A DNA stretch of 64,000 nucleotides from assembly GCA_965208125.1 (NCBI GenBank), contig OZ242320.1, forward strand, positions 384,001-448,000. The letters are read 5' to 3'. Positions 55,605 through 64,000 of this stretch are shown one piece after another. The stretch is from Candidatus Latescibacterota bacterium. Lineage in GTDB: Bacteria; Latescibacterota; UBA2968. Under the pieces are notes generated by a model that worked only from the letters and a program-made list of their open reading frames with translations, made no database searches and was not told the DNA's origin. Made by a program: the position numbers and the translations under genes. Within the stretch, counting starts at the first letter, position 1. The number at the start of each line of letters is the position of its first letter.

Positions 55605-56522
55605 CTATGTAATCACACCGCGCTTGCGAAGCACATCATCCACCTCATCATCGCCCGTTGTTTTGTCGGCAAAGTTGAACTCCGATCCCGCATTGAGCAG
55701 CAACTCAATCACCCCAGCGTAATCGGCATCTGGAACGGGATGATTTGCCAAAAAGTACATCGTTGAACCAAGAGCTGTACCACCAAAGTCATTTTTCAGC
55801 TCAACAGAAGCTCCGCACCCCAGAAGCATCTCGACCGCATCTCTGCGGCCGCGTTGTGATGCCAGCATCAACCCCGTATTATTTGCCCCGCCTTTTACAT
55901 CGATATCCACACCGCGTTTGAGAAGACATTTCGCCACCTCAGTGTGGCCATACTTGCAAGCAGACCAGAATACCTCTTCCAACTCCCTGCGGGATATATC
56001 TCCCTCATCAATGAATCTCTCGACCAATTCAAGCTCCCCCAAACCAGCGGCGACTTCGACATTCATGATCTTTGCACCGCATTCAAGAAGAGCCTGAACC
56101 GACTCGGGATACTCAGAACTAAGCGCGAGCCTTAGTGGTTCACCATCTCCCTTTAACCCATCTACCCTCGCTCCCGAATTGACGAATACACTCACAAGCT
56201 CAGCGGCGACACCCGATTTATGTGGGTGAAAACTGGTCACCAGTGAAACAAGAGGTGTAGTCCCCGATCCTCCATCCAGAAACGTAGCATCTATCTCAGC
56301 ACCAGCATCAATAAGCACATTTGCAACATCGACTGCGTTAGTCGGTGTCCTCTGCCGTTCATCTTCCACGCCATTTGCCGCCACATAGTGAATCAACATC
56401 GCCCTATGCGCTCTGGAGGACCGCATGCGAATCAAATCAGGCTCTCTTTTGAGCAGTAGTTTAAGCGTCTCCGTATCACCGGAAATCACGGCATCAACTG
56501 CTTCCTCAAATTTCTCAGTCAT
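55605..56522 (-). CDS. Ankyrin-repeat protein
   Basis: YGHTEVAKCLLKRGVDID, TGLMLASQRG, GGTAL. Confidence 0.88.
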   Translation of the reverse strand: MTEKFEEAVDAVISGDTETLKLLLKREPDLIRMRSSRAHRAMLIHYVAANGVEDERQRTPTNAVDVANVLIDAGAEIDATFLDGGSGTTPLVSLVTSFHPHKSGVAAELVSVFVNSGARVDGLKGDGEPLRLALSSEYPESVQALLECGAKIMNVEVAAGLGELELVERFIDEGDISRRELEEVFWSACKYGHTEVAKCLLKRGVDIDVKGGANNTGLMLASQRGRRDAVEMLLGCGASVELKNDFGGTALGSTMYFLANHPVPDADYAGVIELLLNAGSEFNFADKTTGDDEVDDVLRKRGVIT

Positions 56523-57388: not shown

Positions 57389-58264
57389 CTATACCTTCAC
57401 CTTCAACGCACCCGGAACAACCTCAATCTTTGCGGGAACTTCACACATCGGTTCTCCATCCGCAAAAATCCACAGGGGATCATCGGATTCAATCTGCAAA
57501 GTTCTCGTCTGCACAATACGCACAGCAGAATGACCAACATGTGCGCCGGAATACGCGCGCAAAAACATCCGCAGAACCGTCCAGCGCGAAACATCTGCCA
57601 CAATGCACACATCCAGCACCCCATCATCAACAATGGCATCAGGTACAATTTTGACCCCACTCCCATAAAAAGGCGCATTCGCCGTTGCCGCCAGCAAAAT
57701 ACGCCCTTCAAAAACACCAAAATCTCCTCTCAGACGCACAAAAGGAGACCGATATCCAGATAGCGTTCGCAAAACCGCCAGACAATAGGACGCAGTCCCA
57801 CCCAATCTCGAAGGTCGAGACCGCGCCCTTTGCGCCACCACGGTATCGAAACCCAAACTCGCAACAGTCGCAAAAAATCGGTCACCCACTTTCCCCAGAT
57901 CAATCGCGCGCTTCACCCCATGCACCAGCGTATTGACCCCATTCTTCACATCTCTGGACAAACCCAATGCCCGCGCCAGATCATTCCCCCGACCACAGGG
58001 CACAACCCCCAAAACCGCGTCTGAATTTGCAAGCCCATTGACCACCTCATGCACTGTCCCATCCCCCCCACACGCAGCCACCTGTCGTGCCCCACGCGCC
58101 AACGCTTCCCGCGCTAACCGCTCGCAATCGCCCGGTGCTTCAGACATCATCAAATCGGTATCTACACCGCGCTCGCGCAACAAATCCGCAACCCGCTCAC
58201 CTGTGCGCCTTGCACGACCGCGTCCCGAAACGGGATTCGCAATAATTGTCCAGTGATTTGACAT
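57389..58264 (-). CDS. Diacylglycerol/lipid kinase (YegS/BmrU family)
   Basis: NPVSG, GGDGTVHEVVNG, GRGND, DDGVLD, ADGE. Confidence 0.9.
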   Translation of the reverse strand: MSNHWTIIANPVSGRGRARRTGERVADLLRERGVDTDLMMSEAPGDCERLAREALARGARQVAACGGDGTVHEVVNGLANSDAVLGVVPCGRGNDLARALGLSRDVKNGVNTLVHGVKRAIDLGKVGDRFFATVASLGFDTVVAQRARSRPSRLGGTASYCLAVLRTLSGYRSPFVRLRGDFGVFEGRILLAATANAPFYGSGVKIVPDAIVDDGVLDVCIVADVSRWTVLRMFLRAYSGAHVGHSAVRIVQTRTLQIESDDPLWIFADGEPMCEVPAKIEVVPGALKVKV

Positions 58265-58279
58265 AAGATTAAAAAGAAA

Positions 58280-58440
58280 ACTCACCTCGCATTGAGATGA
58301 GTAGAGTCGAATCCGAAGCAGGCGGGAACGATTCTATTGAGCTTAGGGGGTAACTTAGGGGGTGACTTAAGGGGTAGCTTGGATGGTAACTTGGATGGTA
58401 ATTGCCAACCGGGCATCCGCCTCAGATCGCACTTCTGGGT
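58280..58440 (-). pseudogene. Degraded fragment of a TPQV-repeat / HTH-type (Fic or ATP-binding regulator) C-terminus
   Basis: Minus strand reads TIQVTIQATP*VTP*VTP*A, followed by LLISMRGEFS in another frame; boundaries approximate. Confidence 0.45.
58342..58401. repeat. Five tandem 12-bp repeats
   Basis: CTTAGGGGGTAA CTTAGGGGGTGA CTTAAGGGGTAG CTTGGATGGTAA CTTGGATGGTAA. Confidence 0.9.
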
Positions 58441-58475
58441 TTGGATGCAGGTCAGAAGACGTCACATTCTCTCCG

Positions 58476-59531
58476 TTAAATCCCGAACCTCTGTTTCAAT
58501 CTTTGAATCCGATTAAAAGATTCGCAAATGCGATCTTCTTCGACAACGCCATCTGCTACCGCCTGCACAATGGCATTTTTAACATCGTACACCTGATCAA
58601 TATTGTATTCCCCAATCTGGTTGGCGAGCAAAATCATATCAACACCTGCTTTTACGGCTTCAACAACCGCCTCTGTCAACCCATACGCCTCGACAATCGC
58701 CCCCATTTGCATATCGTCAGAAATAACGACCCCATCAAAACCCAGCTCATTCCTCAGCAGTTTCGTCATAATATCATGCGACAAAGTTGCCGGTCTTCCG
58801 CTCTTATCGAGCTTCCAATTCACAATATGCGCGGTAAGAATCGGATCATCATAGCCTTTCTGGATAAATTTTTGATACGGCAAAAGCTCTTTCGCACGTC
58901 GGTATGTCTGTGTGACATCGGTAACACCCAGATGCGTATCGCCCGCCGCGCTTCCATGTCCTGGAAAATGTTTCAGCGCCGGTATCACCTGCTGTTCTCG
59001 ATGCGCCTTAATAAACGCATTTGCATGTGCCACCACAGTCCTCGGGACATCGCTAAATGACCGTTCTATCGCGCCAACAGCCGGACTTTGGGGATCTATA
59101 TTCACATCGACAACCGGAGCAAAATTCCAGTTAATCCCCATATCTTTCAATTCGCACGCAAGTGCTTCTGCTACTTTTTTCGTCTTACCCGGAGACTGTC
59201 TGCCGAGTTCTTGAGCAGAAGGCACAGAAACCGAAAATCCATACTCCTCTTTTAGCCGATTGACATACCCACCTTCTACATCAACAGCGATAAAATAGGG
59301 CGCTATGTCCTGAAGCACCGAGGTCAAAGCGCGCAGTTGCCGCGGAGACGTAATATTCCGCACCATCTCACCTTTGCTCGGCAAATCATAATCAAAAAGC
59401 ACAACCCCACCGGGTTGAATATCCCGCAATAGCGCAGCAATATCCCCATATAGAACATCACCGCGAAAACCGATCATCAACATCTGTCCCACGGCTTCCT
59501 CTATGGAAGTTCCAAGATCATCGGGCGTCAC
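58476..59531 (-). CDS. GH3 beta-N-acetylhexosaminidase-like (N-terminal domain only)
   Basis: DVEGGYVNR, FAPVVD, KHFPGHG..DTH, ISDDMQM; probable GTG start overlapping the SDR stop. Confidence 0.88.
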   Translation of the reverse strand: MTPDDLGTSIEEAVGQMLMIGFRGDVLYGDIAALLRDIQPGGVVLFDYDLPSKGEMVRNITSPRQLRALTSVLQDIAPYFIAVDVEGGYVNRLKEEYGFSVSVPSAQELGRQSPGKTKKVAEALACELKDMGINWNFAPVVDVNIDPQSPAVGAIERSFSDVPRTVVAHANAFIKAHREQQVIPALKHFPGHGSAAGDTHLGVTDVTQTYRRAKELLPYQKFIQKGYDDPILTAHIVNWKLDKSGRPATLSHDIMTKLLRNELGFDGVVISDDMQMGAIVEAYGLTEAVVEAVKAGVDMILLANQIGEYNIDQVYDVKNAIVQAVADGVVEEDRICESFNRIQRLKQRFGI

Positions 59532-60340
59532 GCCATATCTCCCAAACCCTGATCCTTCATCTTCCTCCTCACCAGCCACTCGACAATTTTGGGATGAATC
59601 AATTGCAACCATGGCAATGCGCGGTGGTGCCAGGGAAGCACCAATTCGCGCTTCTGTTTTCGCATAGCCTTCAAAATTGCCACACAACAATATTTAAGAG
59701 AAAGCGCCTCTTCATTGTGCCGCTGTGAGGAATCGCCCAGTGCTTCACCATCTTTCCCAAAAGCGTGTTGTCTCAGATTCGTCCCCTGAAGCCAATGCGG
59801 CAAGACCGTCAAAATATGTACGTCTTCCACTTCCAGACGCAGAGCGTTCAAAAAACCCAGCACCGCGTGCTTTGACGCGCCATATCCCGTGTGCAAAGGC
59901 ACGCCAAATTTGCTCTGCAAAGATGCAATGGCCACGATCAGGCCCTTCGAAACTTTTAAATGTGGCAATGCCGCATGCACGCAATAAACCAGACCGAGAT
60001 AATTGGTCTCCATCAGCTTGCGAAACACCTCCAAATCTTCCACCTCATCAAACCTCGCCCACATACTGATCCCGGCATTGGCAATCAAATAATCTATGCA
60101 ACCAAATTCTACAATCGTCGCCTCAACCAATTGCTCGCAATTTTCGATCTGTGTAACATCCCCCACCACTGTCACCACCTGCGCCCCCAACCGCCGACAC
60201 GCCTCAGCCGTCTCGCCCAGCTTTTCCTCTCGCCGTGCAAACAATGTTAGGTGTGCGCCCTGTTTCGCCAGTTCCAGAGCCAACGCAGCCCCAAGCCCCG
60301 AAGACGCGCCTGTAATAATCACTACCTTATCCCTAAACAT
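59528..60340 (-). CDS. SDR oxidoreductase, DHRS7/DHRS7B-like
   Basis: ITGASSGLG, NAGIS, METNY, IVAIASLQSK, YGASKHA. Confidence 0.85.
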   Translation of the reverse strand: MFRDKVVIITGASSGLGAALALELAKQGAHLTLFARREEKLGETAEACRRLGAQVVTVVGDVTQIENCEQLVEATIVEFGCIDYLIANAGISMWARFDEVEDLEVFRKLMETNYLGLVYCVHAALPHLKVSKGLIVAIASLQSKFGVPLHTGYGASKHAVLGFLNALRLEVEDVHILTVLPHWLQGTNLRQHAFGKDGEALGDSSQRHNEEALSLKYCCVAILKAMRKQKRELVLPWHHRALPWLQLIHPKIVEWLVRRKMKDQGLGDMA

Positions 60341-60374
60341 CGCGCCATTCAAAATCAATAATTCCTTTCCATTC

Positions 60375-62207
60375 TCAATCCGCAAACGCCCCATTGCCAA
60401 TGGCGAAGATATTATTTGGATCCATCGCCTTTTTCATCTGCCGCAACACTGCAATGCTATTTTCGCTTTGAATCTGAGGCAAAAATCCACTGCGGAGTTT
60501 GCCCACGCCGTGATGGTGCGACAAAGACCCGCCGTAGTCTAAAATTTCCTGCCGCAACTGGCGCTCAATCGCGTGATAAACGCCAACCGAATCCTCAAGC
60601 CCCTGCGCGCAAAAACCCATTGTAAAATAAATGCACACGCCCGTGTGATAGGTCTGCGTCACGCGATAGGCCAGAAAGGGCTTGCCCGGCACGCCGTATT
60701 CTTCACACAAAACAACCAACTTCTTTTCCACCGCACCAATAACATCGTGAATATTAGTCCACGGCACAGAAGTCTCAAATGTCTCACCCAAAATGTGAAA
60801 CTGAGTAAAAAAATCGCGAATATACGCAATACCAAACGTCAACATATATCCCCGCTCGCCACGGCGCGCACCGCCCGAAATACCGCCGTACTTCTTCGCC
60901 AAACGGAAAATCGTCTTTTCCTGCTGCCGGACCTCGTCTTTTGTGCCCTCCATCACAATCGTACACGCCACCAACTGATTCGGATCAAAACCCTTGACCT
61001 TGACCAAAAAAAATTGCTGAATATCCTGCTGGAACTTCTTGAATCCTTTAGCCTCGGGCTTCAGCGCCTGTCCAAGATGAAATTCCGTATTGTTCACCAG
61101 CCGAATACTCGCCGGAATTTGTCCCGTCTGTCGAAGTGCCTTTAAGTAACCCACACCCCGTTCAAATGACGGAAACACCAACGAACCAAACGCCTGTGCT
61201 TCGGGCTGTTTGTGAATCTTTATCGTCGCCCGGGTAATAATCCCCAAATTGCCCTCACTTCCAAACAAAAACGACCGGGGCTGCACACCCGTCGAATTGC
61301 GCGGCGTCGCATGGTGTGTCTCCACCTCCCCCGTTGGCGTCACCAGCGTGGCCTCTATCACAATATCCTCAATATTGCCATACCGGTTCTTTTTCATACC
61401 ACTGGCATTGGTCGCAATCCATCCCCCCAGAGTTGAAAACTCCAGACTATCTGGATCGTGTCCCGACGTGTATCCCAGCTCATTCAGCGCAATCTCCAAT
61501 TGCTTACCCGAAATACCCGCTTGCACACACGCCTGAAAATTCTCTTCATCCACCTGCACAATGCGACTCATGCGGCGCATATCCACCGACGCGACCATCC
61601 GCGTCTCTGAAATAGGAACAGCGAGCGCACCGCTCACATTCGTCCCGCCGCCATAGGGCACCAGCACCACATTGTGGTCATTTGCAAGCTGAATAATAGC
61701 CTGAATATCCGCGTCTTCCTCTGGGAACAACACCACATCCACCAGGCGTTTGGGCGGCCGATGGTACAAAATTTGATACACCTCATCCACACTCAACTGT
61801 CCGTGGCTATGCACCAGACGCGCTATGTCCTCCTGAGAAACCCCATCTTCGTTGAGCGCATCGCGCACCGCCCTTAAAAATTCGTCATTTGCCACGGGTG
61901 TGGGCAAATCGCGGTGCTCGATCTCTTGCCCCATATCTTCGGGACGGATCGGCACATTGAGCACCTCTTCGACAAAAGGCAAAAAATACGGCATCCGATA
62001 GCCACACAGCGGATACCGCGTTCCCGTCACCTGCACAGTCCTGTCATCGTCAAACTCAAACCGCGTATCCTTATATCCCCACTTGTGTGCAAACCGCTCG
62101 CCTTCTGCTCCCTCAGAAAAACGGTCTTTGCTGGCAAAAGCGCGACGCCCCCGAACGAGCAAAAATACCATCACCAATAAAATTGCAACTATCATCAGTT
62201 CATTCAT
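60375..62207 (-). CDS. Alkyl-dihydroxyacetone-phosphate synthase (AGPS), FAD-linked
   Basis: WGYKDT, PYGGGTNV, GHDPDSLEFSTLGGW, SGMKKNRYGNIED, PASIRL, RVTQTY, GGSLSHHHGVGK. Confidence 0.9.
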   Translation of the reverse strand: MNELMIVAILLVMVFLLVRGRRAFASKDRFSEGAEGERFAHKWGYKDTRFEFDDDRTVQVTGTRYPLCGYRMPYFLPFVEEVLNVPIRPEDMGQEIEHRDLPTPVANDEFLRAVRDALNEDGVSQEDIARLVHSHGQLSVDEVYQILYHRPPKRLVDVVLFPEEDADIQAIIQLANDHNVVLVPYGGGTNVSGALAVPISETRMVASVDMRRMSRIVQVDEENFQACVQAGISGKQLEIALNELGYTSGHDPDSLEFSTLGGWIATNASGMKKNRYGNIEDIVIEATLVTPTGEVETHHATPRNSTGVQPRSFLFGSEGNLGIITRATIKIHKQPEAQAFGSLVFPSFERGVGYLKALRQTGQIPASIRLVNNTEFHLGQALKPEAKGFKKFQQDIQQFFLVKVKGFDPNQLVACTIVMEGTKDEVRQQEKTIFRLAKKYGGISGGARRGERGYMLTFGIAYIRDFFTQFHILGETFETSVPWTNIHDVIGAVEKKLVVLCEEYGVPGKPFLAYRVTQTYHTGVCIYFTMGFCAQGLEDSVGVYHAIERQLRQEILDYGGSLSHHHGVGKLRSGFLPQIQSENSIAVLRQMKKAMDPNNIFAIGNGAFAD

Positions 62208-62223
62208 TTCGTACCTCACGTTT

Positions 62224-63981
62224 TCAAGACTCTTCCGGATTCAACAACGTCGCAATATGCACCGCTTGAAACAGCGCGGCAGCCTCGGACTGAATCCGCA
62301 GCGACCGTCTTTTGGGCAACAGGGTCGTCTCTCCCAGCATAGGCGGCGAGACCCACACATCGACCTGCCCCGGGTTGATATTGATATTGCCTTTTGGACA
62401 TTTGGGCCACAGCGCGTGAAGCCCGCGGTAGGCAATCGGTACAATCACCACATCCTGGGGCAATTGTGCAAACACTCCGTGTTGAAGCGGAAATTGTTGA
62501 AGCGCAAAAGCCGCGGTCGTCGCCATCGGATAAATAACGCCCGGTCGCTCTGTCAATGCCTGTGCCACGCGCTGTGTCGTATGGCCCGCAGCATGGGACC
62601 GCTCGAGCATCACATAGCCATCGACATTTTCCAAAATCTGATCAAAGACCTCCGACGTCATCCCAAACTGCGTGATCTGTTTCGACCCAATTTTGATACC
62701 CGAACGCGCCAGCCCCGTACGCGCCAGAATTACACAAGGTTCGGGTCTTTCCCACCCCATCGCATCCAAAAATTTCCGAGACTGCAAAACCCTGTACAAA
62801 ACGGGATGATCAAACAAACTCTGATGCGTTGGCAAAAAAATAAGACGCCGATCTTCCGTATCGGCTCCCAAATCTCGTACAATGGCTTCAAAATGGGGAT
62901 CGATATAAATATCAACGCGAATATCAAAAATATCCAGCGTGCGACGCCCCCAATCGAGCCAGGTGCGCCATCCAGCTTCGCGGCGACGAATGGGATCGGC
63001 TTCTCTTTCCAACAATTTCTTCTTTTTTCGTCCCACCTTGAGTGAAGTCCCCATCCACCTGACAAAACGCATTCCTCGCTGCAATTTCGAAAATTCCCCT
63101 CGACGCCCGACATCGGAATATTCCAAAAATCGTCCCCGCGCCGTATCTGCGAGCAAAGCGGGAATTTCCACACGCGAAACACTTTGCCCAATGCTATCAA
63201 TTTGCGCGTTCACATCGCATATCAGCTTAACCGACAAATCAATCATATCTCGCGTCAAATAACTATACTCCTGCCCATACCAGTACAACCGGGGACGCAG
63301 CCTGGTGGGATCTTCCTGATGCGCGTGCAAAAATTCAATCAACAATGCCTTGATGTGCAACACATCATCATCTATCCCATTCAGTTCCACATCGTCGCGC
63401 AACTGAGCTAAAGCCACCTCTGCATCCACAATAACCTTCCACACCGACACGCCAAACCAGCCAAAATTTGTCAAATAATTATACCGCGTTGACAGCAGCC
63501 CTCCCGCAGCAATCAAATCGAGCGTGCGCTGTGCCACATCTTGCAACAAATCGCGCAAAGTGCCCACAATCTGCGCGCCATCTCGTTCACAACTGTACTC
63601 CTCGGCCCAGTGTGCACCCTCATCTGCCTCCACATTGCTAAGAACCTCTGCAACGGCGCGGGCATGCGACATCGGCACCTGTGTAATATGCACCTGAGCC
63701 AGAGCCTCTTCAACGGCTTCGGGCGCGTGCAACTCCGCCTGTGCCAGAGCCTTCAAATACAGAGATTGATATAACTTTAAAAAATCTTTCGCATCCCCGC
63801 GTCCGCGCTCGACAAATTGTCGCCGAAGTTGCAAATAAATTCGGCTGCCCGTGTGATATTGCGGAAGCAACTCCGCAAAAGGACGATACGCCTCGTCCAA
63901 ACGCTCATTGCGAACCTCAGGCAGGCCTTGAAAAATCGCATCCACAAGCTGAGCGCGAAATTGTAGTGCCTCCATATCCAT
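62224..63981 (-). CDS. PlsC/GNPAT-like glycerolipid acyltransferase with a large unknown N-terminal domain
   Basis: C-terminal LPLAT motifs: FLPTHQSLFD (HxxxxD), VIYP, VPIA; the ~340-aa N-terminus is unrecognised. Confidence 0.72.
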   Translation of the reverse strand: MDMEALQFRAQLVDAIFQGLPEVRNERLDEAYRPFAELLPQYHTGSRIYLQLRRQFVERGRGDAKDFLKLYQSLYLKALAQAELHAPEAVEEALAQVHITQVPMSHARAVAEVLSNVEADEGAHWAEEYSCERDGAQIVGTLRDLLQDVAQRTLDLIAAGGLLSTRYNYLTNFGWFGVSVWKVIVDAEVALAQLRDDVELNGIDDDVLHIKALLIEFLHAHQEDPTRLRPRLYWYGQEYSYLTRDMIDLSVKLICDVNAQIDSIGQSVSRVEIPALLADTARGRFLEYSDVGRRGEFSKLQRGMRFVRWMGTSLKVGRKKKKLLEREADPIRRREAGWRTWLDWGRRTLDIFDIRVDIYIDPHFEAIVRDLGADTEDRRLIFLPTHQSLFDHPVLYRVLQSRKFLDAMGWERPEPCVILARTGLARSGIKIGSKQITQFGMTSEVFDQILENVDGYVMLERSHAAGHTTQRVAQALTERPGVIYPMATTAAFALQQFPLQHGVFAQLPQDVVIVPIAYRGLHALWPKCPKGNININPGQVDVWVSPPMLGETTLLPKRRSLRIQSEAAALFQAVHIATLLNPEES

Positions 63982-64000
63982 TGCCCCGCTCTGACTTTTG

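What the first reader, a model, noticed from the sequence alone, without database searches (positions are those of the whole stretch)
60375..62207. AGPS is strikingly animal-like and carries an N-terminal membrane anchor
Seen: long blocks such as GHDPDSLEFSTLGGW, SGMKKNRYGNIED, PASIRL..F..G.ALKP, KGFDPNQL, RGYMLTFGIAYIRD, RVTQTY and GGSLSHHHGVGKLR. From memory these closely follow metazoan AGPS rather than generic bacterial FAD-linked oxidases. The N-terminus MNELMIVAILLVMVFLLVRGRR is a TM/signal anchor where animal AGPS has a peroxisomal targeting extension. Inference: the gene is either a bacterial sister lineage of eukaryotic AGPS or the product of interdomain transfer.
Basis: partly seen in the sequence, partly recalled or inferred. 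Interest (0 to 1): 0.7.

Follow-up and report, generated by a model that had tools for sequence, protein, structure and literature searches.

The report
Membrane-anchored bacterial ether-lipid synthase (AGPS)
This is a genuine bacterial copy of the enzyme that makes the ether bond of ether lipids, tethered to the membrane by a short N-terminal helix and sitting in a four-gene pathway operon, but it is an ordinary, vertically inherited member of a large bacterial family and has no special kinship with animals.

Summary
ORF 60375-62207(-) encodes a 610-aa alkyl-DHAP synthase (AGPS). It scores 514 bits against guinea-pig AGPS, with the catalytic Arg, Tyr and HHH loop conserved. It starts with a hydrophobic helix followed by RGRR.

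About 42-49% identity to animal AGPS is normal for bacterial AGPS, and this gene ranks only 37th-59th of 76 bacterial copies against animal queries. In ML trees it is nested in a Latescibacterota/Poribacteria/Marinimicrobia clade inside a wide bacterial radiation. AU tests reject it as sister to animals (p 3e-51) or to the animal/oomycete/alveolate group (p 0.0016). It occurs in 122 of 131 genomes of its class, so it is inherited vertically.

New details:
- The N-terminal anchor is specific to this clade (110 of 117 close homologues; 0 of 63 other bacterial loci).
- The gene lies in an operon: FAR, an orphan acyltransferase, AGPS and an SDR.
- In this class PlsY was found in 0 of 131 genomes and the orphan acyltransferase in 129 of 131. 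The DHAP route may therefore start all glycerolipid synthesis there.

AGPS homologues in Latescibacterota are already in print, and this scan has reported the operon before on other DNA.

The parts
60375..62207 (-). AGPS (alkyl-DHAP synthase) coding sequence, 610 aa from ATG. An alternative GTG start at 62219 gives 614 aa.
   Evidence: ORF. Pfam FAD_binding_4 plus FAD-oxidase_C. 514 bits to guinea-pig AGPS 4bby. GAGG 6 nt upstream of the ATG.
62154..62198 (-). N-terminal hydrophobic helix LMIVAILLVMVFLLV, preceded by MNE and followed by RGRR. Predicted N-out/C-in membrane anchor.
   Evidence: Translation checked. Top Kyte-Doolittle 19-residue window is 2.3. Conserved in 110 of 117 close homologues and in 9 of 12 loci of its clade, against 0 of 63 other bacterial loci. 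The topology is inferred from the positive-inside rule.
62214..62217 (-). Shine-Dalgarno-like GAGG, 6 nt upstream of the ATG at 62207.
   Evidence: Sequence read. Its function is inferred.
61320..61739 (-). FAD-binding domain (PF01565), residues 161-300 of the 614-aa form.
   Evidence: Pfam E 1.3e-37.
60402..61205 (-). FAD-linked oxidase C-terminal (cap) domain (PF02913), residues 339-606 of the 614-aa form.
   Evidence: Pfam E 2.1e-37.
61101..61103 (-). Arg373 (614-aa numbering), aligned to guinea-pig Arg419.
   Evidence: Alignment. Invariant in alignment A1. Codon checked. The residue's role is recalled from the AGPS structure papers.
60627..60629 (-). Tyr531, aligned to guinea-pig Tyr578.
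   Evidence: Alignment, where PDB chain 4bca differs from 4bby exactly at this Tyr. Invariant in A1. Codon checked.
60510..60518 (-). His568-His569-His570, the HHH loop (guinea-pig 615-617).
   Evidence: Alignment. Invariant in A1. Codons checked.
62224..64000 (-). Orphan HX4D acyltransferase and candidate DHAP acyltransferase, 646 aa. The gene runs off the window end; the full gene is L090:3225-5165(-).
   Evidence: ORFs. No Pfam family passes (PF01553 E 0.1). The AlphaFold model's best Foldseek matches are PlsC 5kym (E 6.7e-4) and plant GPAT. Present in 132 of 168 genomes of the phylum.
62809..62826 (-). HQSLFD, the HX4D acyltransferase motif of the orphan acyltransferase.
   Evidence: Translation checked. 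H, Q and S are invariant in 5 orthologues. Aligned in register with the HRSYMD motif of FARAT acyltransferase domains (not significant).
59528..60400 (-). Short-chain dehydrogenase and candidate acyl/alkyl-DHAP reductase. Its start overlaps or closely follows the AGPS stop.
   Evidence: Pfam adh_short E 1.8e-46. NCBIfam PRK06181. Next to AGPS in 9 of the 11 closest loci. Lies in the same open frame as AGPS in a Leptospirales genome.

Best explanation
The gene encodes a catalytically competent alkyl-dihydroxyacetone-phosphate synthase. This flavoenzyme swaps the acyl chain of 1-acyl-DHAP for a fatty alcohol to make the ether bond.

In this Latescibacterota lineage the enzyme is held at the cytoplasmic face of the inner membrane by a short N-terminal helix, with the N terminus outside and the catalytic domain inside.

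It is the third gene of a tight operon:
- a fatty acyl reductase (FAR) makes the alcohol;
- an orphan HX4D acyltransferase is inferred to make acyl-DHAP;
- AGPS makes alkyl-DHAP;
- a short-chain dehydrogenase is inferred to reduce it to 1-alkyl-glycerol-3-phosphate.

No PEDS1/CarF desaturase was found, so the predicted products are alkyl (plasmanyl) lipids, not plasmalogens.

The gene is inherited vertically within its class. It belongs to a wide bacterial AGPS radiation. Its likeness to animal AGPS is the general conservation of the family.
For: Identity as AGPS:
- Both Pfam domains are present.
- 514 bits, E 6e-153, to guinea-pig AGPS over residues 46-606.
- Arg373, Tyr531 and His568-570 align to guinea-pig Arg419, Tyr578 and His615-617, and are invariant in 10 diverse homologues.

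Anchor:
- Kyte-Doolittle 2.3.
- Present in 110 of 117 full-length close homologues.
- Present in 9 of 12 loci of its clade and 0 of 63 other bacterial loci.

Operon:
- FAR of 534 aa with NAD_binding_4 plus Sterile domains.
- Gaps of 9 and 16 nt between genes, and an overlap at AGPS/SDR.
- The same four genes occur in L001-L004 (4 of 80 loci), and AGPS-SDR in further Latescibacterota loci.
- AGPS and an SDR lie in one 1040-aa open frame in a Leptospirales genome.
- The acyltransferase model matches PlsC/GPAT folds.

No plasmalogen step: PF10520 was not found in this genome (96% complete), but was found in 4 of 4 control genomes that carry AGPS.

Vertical inheritance:
- AGPS is in 122 of 131 genomes of families f1-f4, and in 1 of 36 elsewhere in the phylum.
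- GC content of the gene region is like that of the rest of the window.

Phylogeny: and the AU tests.
Against: - No enzyme of this operon has been assayed. Function rests on homology and gene order.
- The acyltransferase is only weakly tied to the family: Pfam E 0.1; hhalign probability 1.9%, E 0.026; model pLDDT 68.5, with low-confidence stretches inside the acyltransferase domain. Its substrate (DHAP or G3P) is not shown.
- The SDR belongs to a huge family, and its role is inferred from position and one fusion.
- The anchor's topology is inferred. No dedicated TM or signal-peptide predictor was available.
- 7 of 117 close homologues and 3 of 12 clade loci lack the anchor, so it is not indispensable.
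- RNA-library contigs that cover the operon are 90-95% identical relatives, and contigs cannot prove transcription.
Confidence: 0.8

Rival explanations
1. The gene, or its lineage, is the specific bacterial sister of eukaryotic or animal AGPS, or it came from a eukaryote by interdomain transfer.
For: - Identity to animal AGPS is high (42-44% by BLAST; 514 bits).
- When rooted on the outgroup, the bacterial sequences sit above a grade of eukaryotic sequences. Taken at face value, that would fit an old eukaryote-to-bacterium transfer of the whole bacterial family.
Against: - The window's clade is nested deep among bacteria.
- AU tests reject clade+animals (delta lnL 243, p 3.5e-51) and clade+animal/oomycete/alveolate group (delta lnL 185, p 0.0016).
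- The gene ranks 37th-59th of 76 bacterial AGPS against six animal queries.
- It is conserved across its class.
- The eukaryotic grade is weakly supported. Monophyly of that eukaryotic group (p 0.17) and of the bacteria (p 0.52) is not rejected.
Confidence: 0.04
2. The N-terminal hydrophobic segment is a cleaved Sec signal peptide, and the enzyme works outside the cytoplasm.
For: - There is a hydrophobic run at the extreme N terminus.
- In the window and some close homologues a small-x-small motif (AFA, AHA, VYA) follows a few residues later.
Against: - There is no positively charged region before the hydrophobic run (the protein starts MNE).
- Two to four Arg/Lys residues follow the run directly. 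By the positive-inside rule (established knowledge) this keeps the following domain in the cytoplasm.
- The small-x-small motif is absent in more distant anchored homologues such as P0028 and P0043.
- The cofactor FAD and the substrates made by the neighbouring cytoplasmic enzymes argue for the inside.
Confidence: 0.06
3. The protein is a different FAD-linked oxidase, such as a D-lactate or glycolate dehydrogenase, that only resembles AGPS.
For: NCBIfam lists only sub-threshold GlcD-type hits. Pfam names only the generic domains.
Against: - AGPS scores 514 bits. The best non-AGPS structure scores 89 bits and covers the FAD domain only.
- The N-terminal AGPS-specific region (WGY.DT.F, residues 46-100) and the HHH loop are conserved.
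- The neighbouring FAR and acyltransferase genes fit an AGPS pathway.
Confidence: 0.03
4. The operon's main job is the acyl-DHAP route to ordinary ester lipids: the acyltransferase plus the SDR replace PlsX/PlsY. On this reading AGPS and FAR add only a minor or conditional ether-lipid fraction.
For: - PlsX, PlsY and PlsB were not found in this genome, which has only one small PF01553 protein.
- PlsY was found in 0 of 131 genomes of families f1-f4, where the orphan acyltransferase is in 129 of 131.
- Some genomes keep the acyltransferase but show no AGPS with this query. Genus g28 has the acyltransferase in 5 of 5 genomes and AGPS in 1 of 5.
Against: AGPS is still present in 122 of 131 genomes of these families. 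In this genome it is wedged between the acyltransferase and the SDR. This reading complements the best explanation and does not contradict it.
Confidence: 0.3

Closest known systems
Mammalian peroxisomal AGPS (guinea-pig structures 4bby and others)
   Same: Same two-domain flavoenzyme over the whole catalytic length: 514 bits, query 46-606 to chain 95-653. The Arg, the Tyr and the HHH loop are conserved.
   Different: There is no N-terminal targeting extension; a single membrane helix is found there instead. It is encoded in an operon. It is about 42-44% identical to animal sequences.
Myxococcus xanthus MXAN_1676 (Agps) in the operon MXAN_1676-1675-1674
   Same: A bacterial AGPS tied to FAR and acyltransferase functions. 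Deleting MXAN_1676 blocks ether lipids made by that route (PMC13012113, figure legend and passages read).
   Different: - Myxobacterial-type loci have AGPS followed by one FAR-acyltransferase fusion that carries a recognisable PF01553 domain (L017). Here FAR and the acyltransferase are separate genes upstream, and the acyltransferase is an orphan family.
- Myxobacterial-type AGPS lacks the N-terminal helix and lies in the other bacterial subclade.
- Their genomes carry PEDS1/CarF; this one does not.
AGPS homologues reported in Latescibacterota and Poribacteria metagenome bins
   Same: The same genes. Agps homologues were reported in 67 of 92 Latescibacterota bins from the Black Sea (PMC11868695, passages) and in sponge-symbiont Latescibacterota, Poribacteria and Acidobacteriota (bioRxiv 10.64898/2026.06.23.733905, passages).
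   Different: In the passages I read, those papers report BLAST hits only. They describe no anchor, no operon and no phylogeny relative to eukaryotes. The supplements were not seen.
Dictyostelium AGPS (2uuu)
   Same: Same reaction and same fold.
   Different: It is only 308 bits and about 30% identical. It falls in a separate clade with short sequences that begin 'KWWGWG'.

Membership tests
AGPS (alkylglycerone-phosphate synthase, EC 2.5.1.26) | FAD_binding_4 plus FAD-oxidase_C architecture, with full-length similarity to characterised AGPS. | tested here: met
   Pfam. 514 bits to guinea-pig AGPS over 561 residues, against 89 bits for the best non-AGPS structure.
AGPS (alkylglycerone-phosphate synthase, EC 2.5.1.26) | Active-site Arg, Tyr and HHH loop (guinea-pig Arg419, Tyr578, His615-617; their roles are recalled from the structure papers). 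| tested here: met
   Aligned and identical. Invariant in A1. Codons checked.
AGPS (alkylglycerone-phosphate synthase, EC 2.5.1.26) | Placement inside the AGPS clade and apart from other FAD-linked oxidases. | tested here: met
   Trees rooted on a paralogue from the same genome.
AGPS (alkylglycerone-phosphate synthase, EC 2.5.1.26) | Acyl-DHAP plus fatty alcohol gives alkyl-DHAP (enzyme activity). | not testable with these tools
   Needs an enzyme assay or a complementation test.
Eukaryotic (animal-type) AGPS lineage | Groups with animal or other eukaryotic AGPS to the exclusion of bacterial sequences. | tested here: not met
   Nested in a bacterial clade. AU tests reject the join: p 3.5e-51 and p 0.0016.
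Eukaryotic (animal-type) AGPS lineage | N-terminal peroxisomal targeting signal (PTS2). | tested here: not met
   The N terminus is a hydrophobic helix. The PTS2 consensus is recalled.
GPAT/LPLAT acyltransferases (the upstream orphan protein) | HX4D motif and the PlsC/GPAT fold. | tested here: inconclusive
   The HQSLFD motif is conserved. The top Foldseek matches are PlsC 5kym (E 6.7e-4) and plant GPAT, on a model of pLDDT 68.5. However, Pfam gives E 0.1 and hhalign gives probability 1.9%.
Myxobacterial AGPS-FARAT operon | AGPS next to a FAR-acyltransferase fusion protein. | tested here: not met
   FAR and the acyltransferase are separate genes upstream of AGPS. The fusion is seen in L009 and L017 instead.

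The most novel reading that the evidence does not exclude
In this class of Latescibacterota the peroxisome-style DHAP route (orphan acyltransferase, membrane-anchored AGPS, SDR) has replaced PlsX/PlsY/PlsB as the only entry into glycerolipid synthesis. On this reading, sn-1 ether lipids made by this AGPS are a default bulk membrane component and not an accessory. The membrane anchor is then the bacterial counterpart of confining the pathway to the peroxisomal membrane.
Probability: 0.35. Interest if true: 0.65.

Novelty: new variant of a known kind. Interest (0 to 1): 0.4.

Why it matters
Ether lipids are abundant in sponges and sediments, and their bacterial sources are poorly known.

- A membrane-tethered AGPS in a complete FAR, acyltransferase, AGPS and reductase operon gives a directly testable source. 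It is conserved across a whole class of sponge- and sediment-associated bacteria that lack PlsX/PlsY.
- The operon names candidates for two bacterial steps without known genes: a DHAP acyltransferase of a new family, and the alkyl-DHAP reductase.
- For the origin of eukaryotic ether-lipid synthesis, the result is a caution. Similarity to animals does not mark this lineage as donor or recipient.
- The AGPS tree does carry one strong split that published work did not use: bacteria plus algal fusion proteins against the animal/oomycete/alveolate forms.

Tried and rejected
I named the unnamed representatives by PDB look-ups and by two further homologue searches.
- The protein atlas gave no usable taxon for P0136 and nothing for P0142.
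- The treekit mixture-model tree on 87 rows did not finish in two calls. I used LG+G4 on 87 rows and the mixture model on 50 rows.
- treekit's test_one_clade did not finish. I ran constrained IQ-TREE fast searches and an AU test myself. These are fast searches under LG+G4 only.
- The orphan acyltransferase had no significant match to PDB sequences or to Pfam. Its profile comparison with FARAT acyltransferase domains was not significant.
- A paper search for the AGPS active-site residues found nothing, so their roles are recalled.
- Searches for a described N-terminal anchor on bacterial AGPS and for algal FAR-acyltransferase-AGPS fusions found no relevant paper. The one hit concerns Legionella and host peroxisomes (listing only).
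- A search for Latescibacter with PlsY/PlsX (listing only) showed nothing on loss of these genes.
- RNA runs held only 0.06-0.14 of the sampled words. The laid contigs are 90-95% identical relatives and cannot show transcription, strand or ends.
- Several deep-branching representatives (P0128, P0130, P0135, P0145, P0147, P0155, P0157, P0162, P0189) could not be assigned to bacteria or eukaryotes.
Full report
**What is there**

The minus-strand ORF 60375-62219 (614 aa from GTG) carries the Pfam domains FAD_binding_4 and FAD-oxidase_C. Against all PDB sequences, its best match is guinea-pig peroxisomal AGPS: 514 bits, E 6e-153, residues 46-606 aligned to 95-653. Dictyostelium AGPS scores 308 bits. 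The best non-AGPS flavoenzyme scores 89 bits, over the FAD domain only.

Arg373, Tyr531 and His568-570 (614-aa numbering) align to guinea-pig Arg419, Tyr578 and His615-617. They are invariant in an alignment of ten diverse homologues. The catalytic roles of these residues are recalled from the AGPS structure papers, and a paper search did not retrieve those papers.

A GAGG lies 6 nt upstream, and close homologues begin M-x-E followed by the hydrophobic run.

**The N terminus**

The segment MNE-LMIVAILLVMVFLLV-RGRR is the most hydrophobic 19-residue window of the protein (Kyte-Doolittle 2.3).

- Of the 120 best homologues (60-95% identical), 117 were full length with the conserved WG[YF] block. 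Of these, 110 have such a segment scoring at least 1.6.
- Among the 80 loci fetched from species-representative genomes, 75 could be scored.
- The segment occurs in 9 of the 12 loci of the window's own clade (L001-L005, L007, L009-L011; not L006, L008, L049).
- It occurs in 0 of 63 loci of other bacterial groups.

The anchor is therefore real, conserved and clade-specific.

There is no basic residue before the run and two to four directly after it. By the positive-inside rule the catalytic domain should stay in the cytoplasm, giving an N-out anchor and not a signal peptide. This topology is inferred, because no dedicated predictor was available.

**Context**

The window is G000:C1:384001-448000 of a single-contig 5.75-Mb genome. 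Its nearest named relative is a Candidatus Latescibacterota bin, 95% identical in AGPS.

- Upstream of AGPS, after a 16-nt gap, lies a 646-aa protein that runs off the window end.
- Upstream of that, after a 9-nt gap, lies a 534-aa fatty acyl reductase with NAD_binding_4 and Sterile domains.
- Downstream of AGPS, overlapping its stop or closely following it, lies an SDR.
- Divergently upstream lie yceD, fabH, fabD and fabG.

The 646-aa protein has no Pfam family (PF01553 E 0.1) and no PDB sequence match. It does keep an HX4D motif (HQSLFD). An AlphaFold model (pLDDT 68.5, built on five sequences) finds PlsC (5kym, E 6.7e-4) and plant GPATs as its best fold matches. A profile comparison with the acyltransferase domains of FARAT fusions puts the motifs in register but is not significant.

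The four-gene order FAR, acyltransferase, AGPS, SDR recurs in 4 of 80 loci (L001-L004). AGPS-SDR recurs in further Latescibacterota loci. Myxococcota and Gemmatimonadota loci instead have AGPS followed by a FAR-acyltransferase fusion. In a Leptospirales genome AGPS and an SDR lie in one 1040-aa open frame, which ties the SDR to the pathway.

PEDS1/CarF (PF10520) was not found in this genome, which is 96% complete. The same search found it in 4 of 4 Myxococcota and Leptospirales genomes that carry AGPS. The predicted products are therefore alkyl lipids, not vinyl-ether lipids.

**Is it specially animal-like?**

No. More than 5000 homologues exist, and at least 599 stretches in species-representative bacterial genomes encode one. 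They span Latescibacterota, Chloroflexota, Myxococcota, Gemmatimonadota, Acidobacteriota, Spirochaetota, Deinococcota, Cyanobacteriota and other phyla.

With six animal AGPS as queries, the window's protein is 42-44% identical and ranks 37th to 59th of 76 bacterial AGPS. The Myxococcota/Acidobacteriota/Gemmatimonadota group has a median of 45-46% and reaches 49%. The animal representative P0129 was identified by its 718 bits to the guinea-pig enzyme.

**Phylogeny: data**

I combined three sets of sequences:
- 75 of the 80 bacterial loci, dropping the 5 that were incomplete;
- 88 of 150 cluster representatives, keeping those with one full-length AGPS domain;
- named eukaryotic sequences.

A paralogue from the window's own genome served as outgroup.

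**Phylogeny: topology**

FastTree on 165 rows, IQ-TREE LG+G4 on 87 hand-picked rows and LG+C20 PMSF on 50 rows agree on four points.

- Dictyostelium-type AGPS sits in a separate clade.
- Animal, oomycete and alveolate AGPS form a poorly resolved basal group.
- One strongly supported clade (SH-like 99; SH-aLRT 100 and 100) holds all labelled bacterial AGPS together with algal fusion proteins.
- Inside that clade, the window's sequence is nested in a Latescibacterota/Poribacteria/Neomarinimicrobiota clade (SH-aLRT 99 for 11 rows; 98 for 5 rows and 97 for 13 rows under the mixture model).

**Phylogeny: AU tests**

These used LG+G4 and fast constrained searches.

- Window's clade joined to animals: delta lnL 243, p 3.5e-51. 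Rejected.
- Window's clade joined to the animal/oomycete/alveolate group: delta lnL 185, p 0.0016. Rejected.
- Monophyly of that eukaryotic group: p 0.17. Not rejected.
- Monophyly of the bacteria: p 0.52. Not rejected.
- One clade holding both eukaryotic groups: p 0.03. Marginally rejected.

The direction of any ancient interdomain transfer is therefore open. This matches the published remark that AGPS gave insufficient signal (PMC13012113, section 11).

**Inheritance**

Across 168 genomes of the phylum, AGPS (E at most 1e-80) is found in 28/30, 22/22, 1/3 and 71/76 genomes of families f1-f4, the window's class. Elsewhere it is in 1 of 36. The GC content of the gene matches that of the window. 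This is vertical inheritance within a class, not a recent acquisition.

- PlsX (PF02504) and PlsY (PF02660) were not found in this genome, while the control genomes rang.
- The only PF01553 protein found is a 250-aa open frame, so no PlsB-sized protein was seen.
- Across the phylum, PlsY is in 0 of 131 genomes of f1-f4 and in 29 of 36 others.
- The orphan acyltransferase is in 129 of 131 genomes of f1-f4 and in 2 of 36 others.

These genomes are kin, so the pattern reflects one or two evolutionary events, not 168 independent observations. It suggests that the DHAP route starts glycerolipid synthesis in this class.

Some genomes keep the acyltransferase but show no AGPS with this query (genus g28: 5 of 5 against 1 of 5). 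The acyltransferase and the SDR may therefore be the core of the route, with AGPS and FAR forming the ether branch.

**Expression and habitat hints**

Contigs from RNA libraries labelled sponge or coral metagenome, from four studies, cover the operon at 90-95% identity. One contig bridges the acyltransferase/AGPS junction. These are relatives, and contigs cannot prove transcription.

**What is known already**

- AGPS homologues in Latescibacterota and Poribacteria bins are in print as BLAST hits (PMC11868695 and bioRxiv 10.64898/2026.06.23.733905; passages read; supplements not seen).
- The M. xanthus operon is described, and its AGPS deletion is reported to block the route (PMC13012113).
- This scan has reported the Latescibacterota operon before on other DNA.
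- I found no paper describing the anchor or the loss of PlsX/PlsY in this phylum (listing only).

**Verdict**

- The evolutionary interpretation is not supported for this gene.
- The membrane anchor is confirmed and shown to be specific to the clade.
- The gene is a new variant (anchored, in a split-gene operon with an orphan acyltransferase) of a known bacterial ether-lipid system.

Noticed in passing
Proteins P0144, P0161, P0188, P0159, P0164, P0149 and about 110 others: Diatoms, dinoflagellates, Triparma, Pycnococcus and brown algae encode single polypeptides of 2100-2700 aa. Several join an acyl-CoA-binding domain, often an aminotransferase-like domain, FAR, an acyltransferase and AGPS. 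Their AGPS domains group with bacterial AGPS and not with animal, oomycete or alveolate AGPS (SH-aLRT 100). The passages I read of PMC13012113 do not mention a triple fusion, and a paper search found none.
   Followed up: partly
Own genome, and 168 genomes of the phylum: The orphan acyltransferase and PlsY have nearly complementary distributions. In the window's class the acyltransferase is in 129 of 131 genomes and PlsY in 0 of 131. In the rest of the phylum the figures are 2 of 36 and 29 of 36. PlsX and a PlsB-sized PF01553 protein were also not found in this genome.
   Followed up: partly
L090:7157-10871 (just beyond the window's end): The ether-lipid operon is transcribed divergently from yceD, fabH, fabD and fabG. 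The gap between yceD and fabH is only about 260 nt, which leaves no room for the plsX gene that many bacteria carry there (the usual gene order is recalled).
   Followed up: no
L042:4782-7901: A Leptospirales genome has AGPS and a short-chain dehydrogenase in one 1040-aa open frame. This looks like a natural fusion of the ether-bond step with its presumed reductase.
   Followed up: partly
L016:731-4960; P0123; P0041: Other domain arrangements occur around bacterial AGPS. One is a 1410-aa FAR / AMP-binding / carrier-protein / acyltransferase protein next to AGPS, resembling ElbD. Another is an 810-aa acyltransferase-AGPS fusion. A third is a 1060-aa aminotransferase-AGPS protein.
   Followed up: no
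window 57389-59690 (-): Downstream of the SDR lie a GH3 glycosidase and a YegS/DAGK-type lipid kinase. The kinase also follows the operon in L001 and L002 only (2 of 80 loci). A role in phosphorylating alkylglycerol or diacylglycerol is speculation.
   Followed up: no
window 55605-56522 (-): A 305-aa ankyrin-repeat protein. From recalled knowledge, such repeats are often enriched in sponge symbionts. That would fit the sponge labels of the RNA runs holding relatives of this locus.
   Followed up: no
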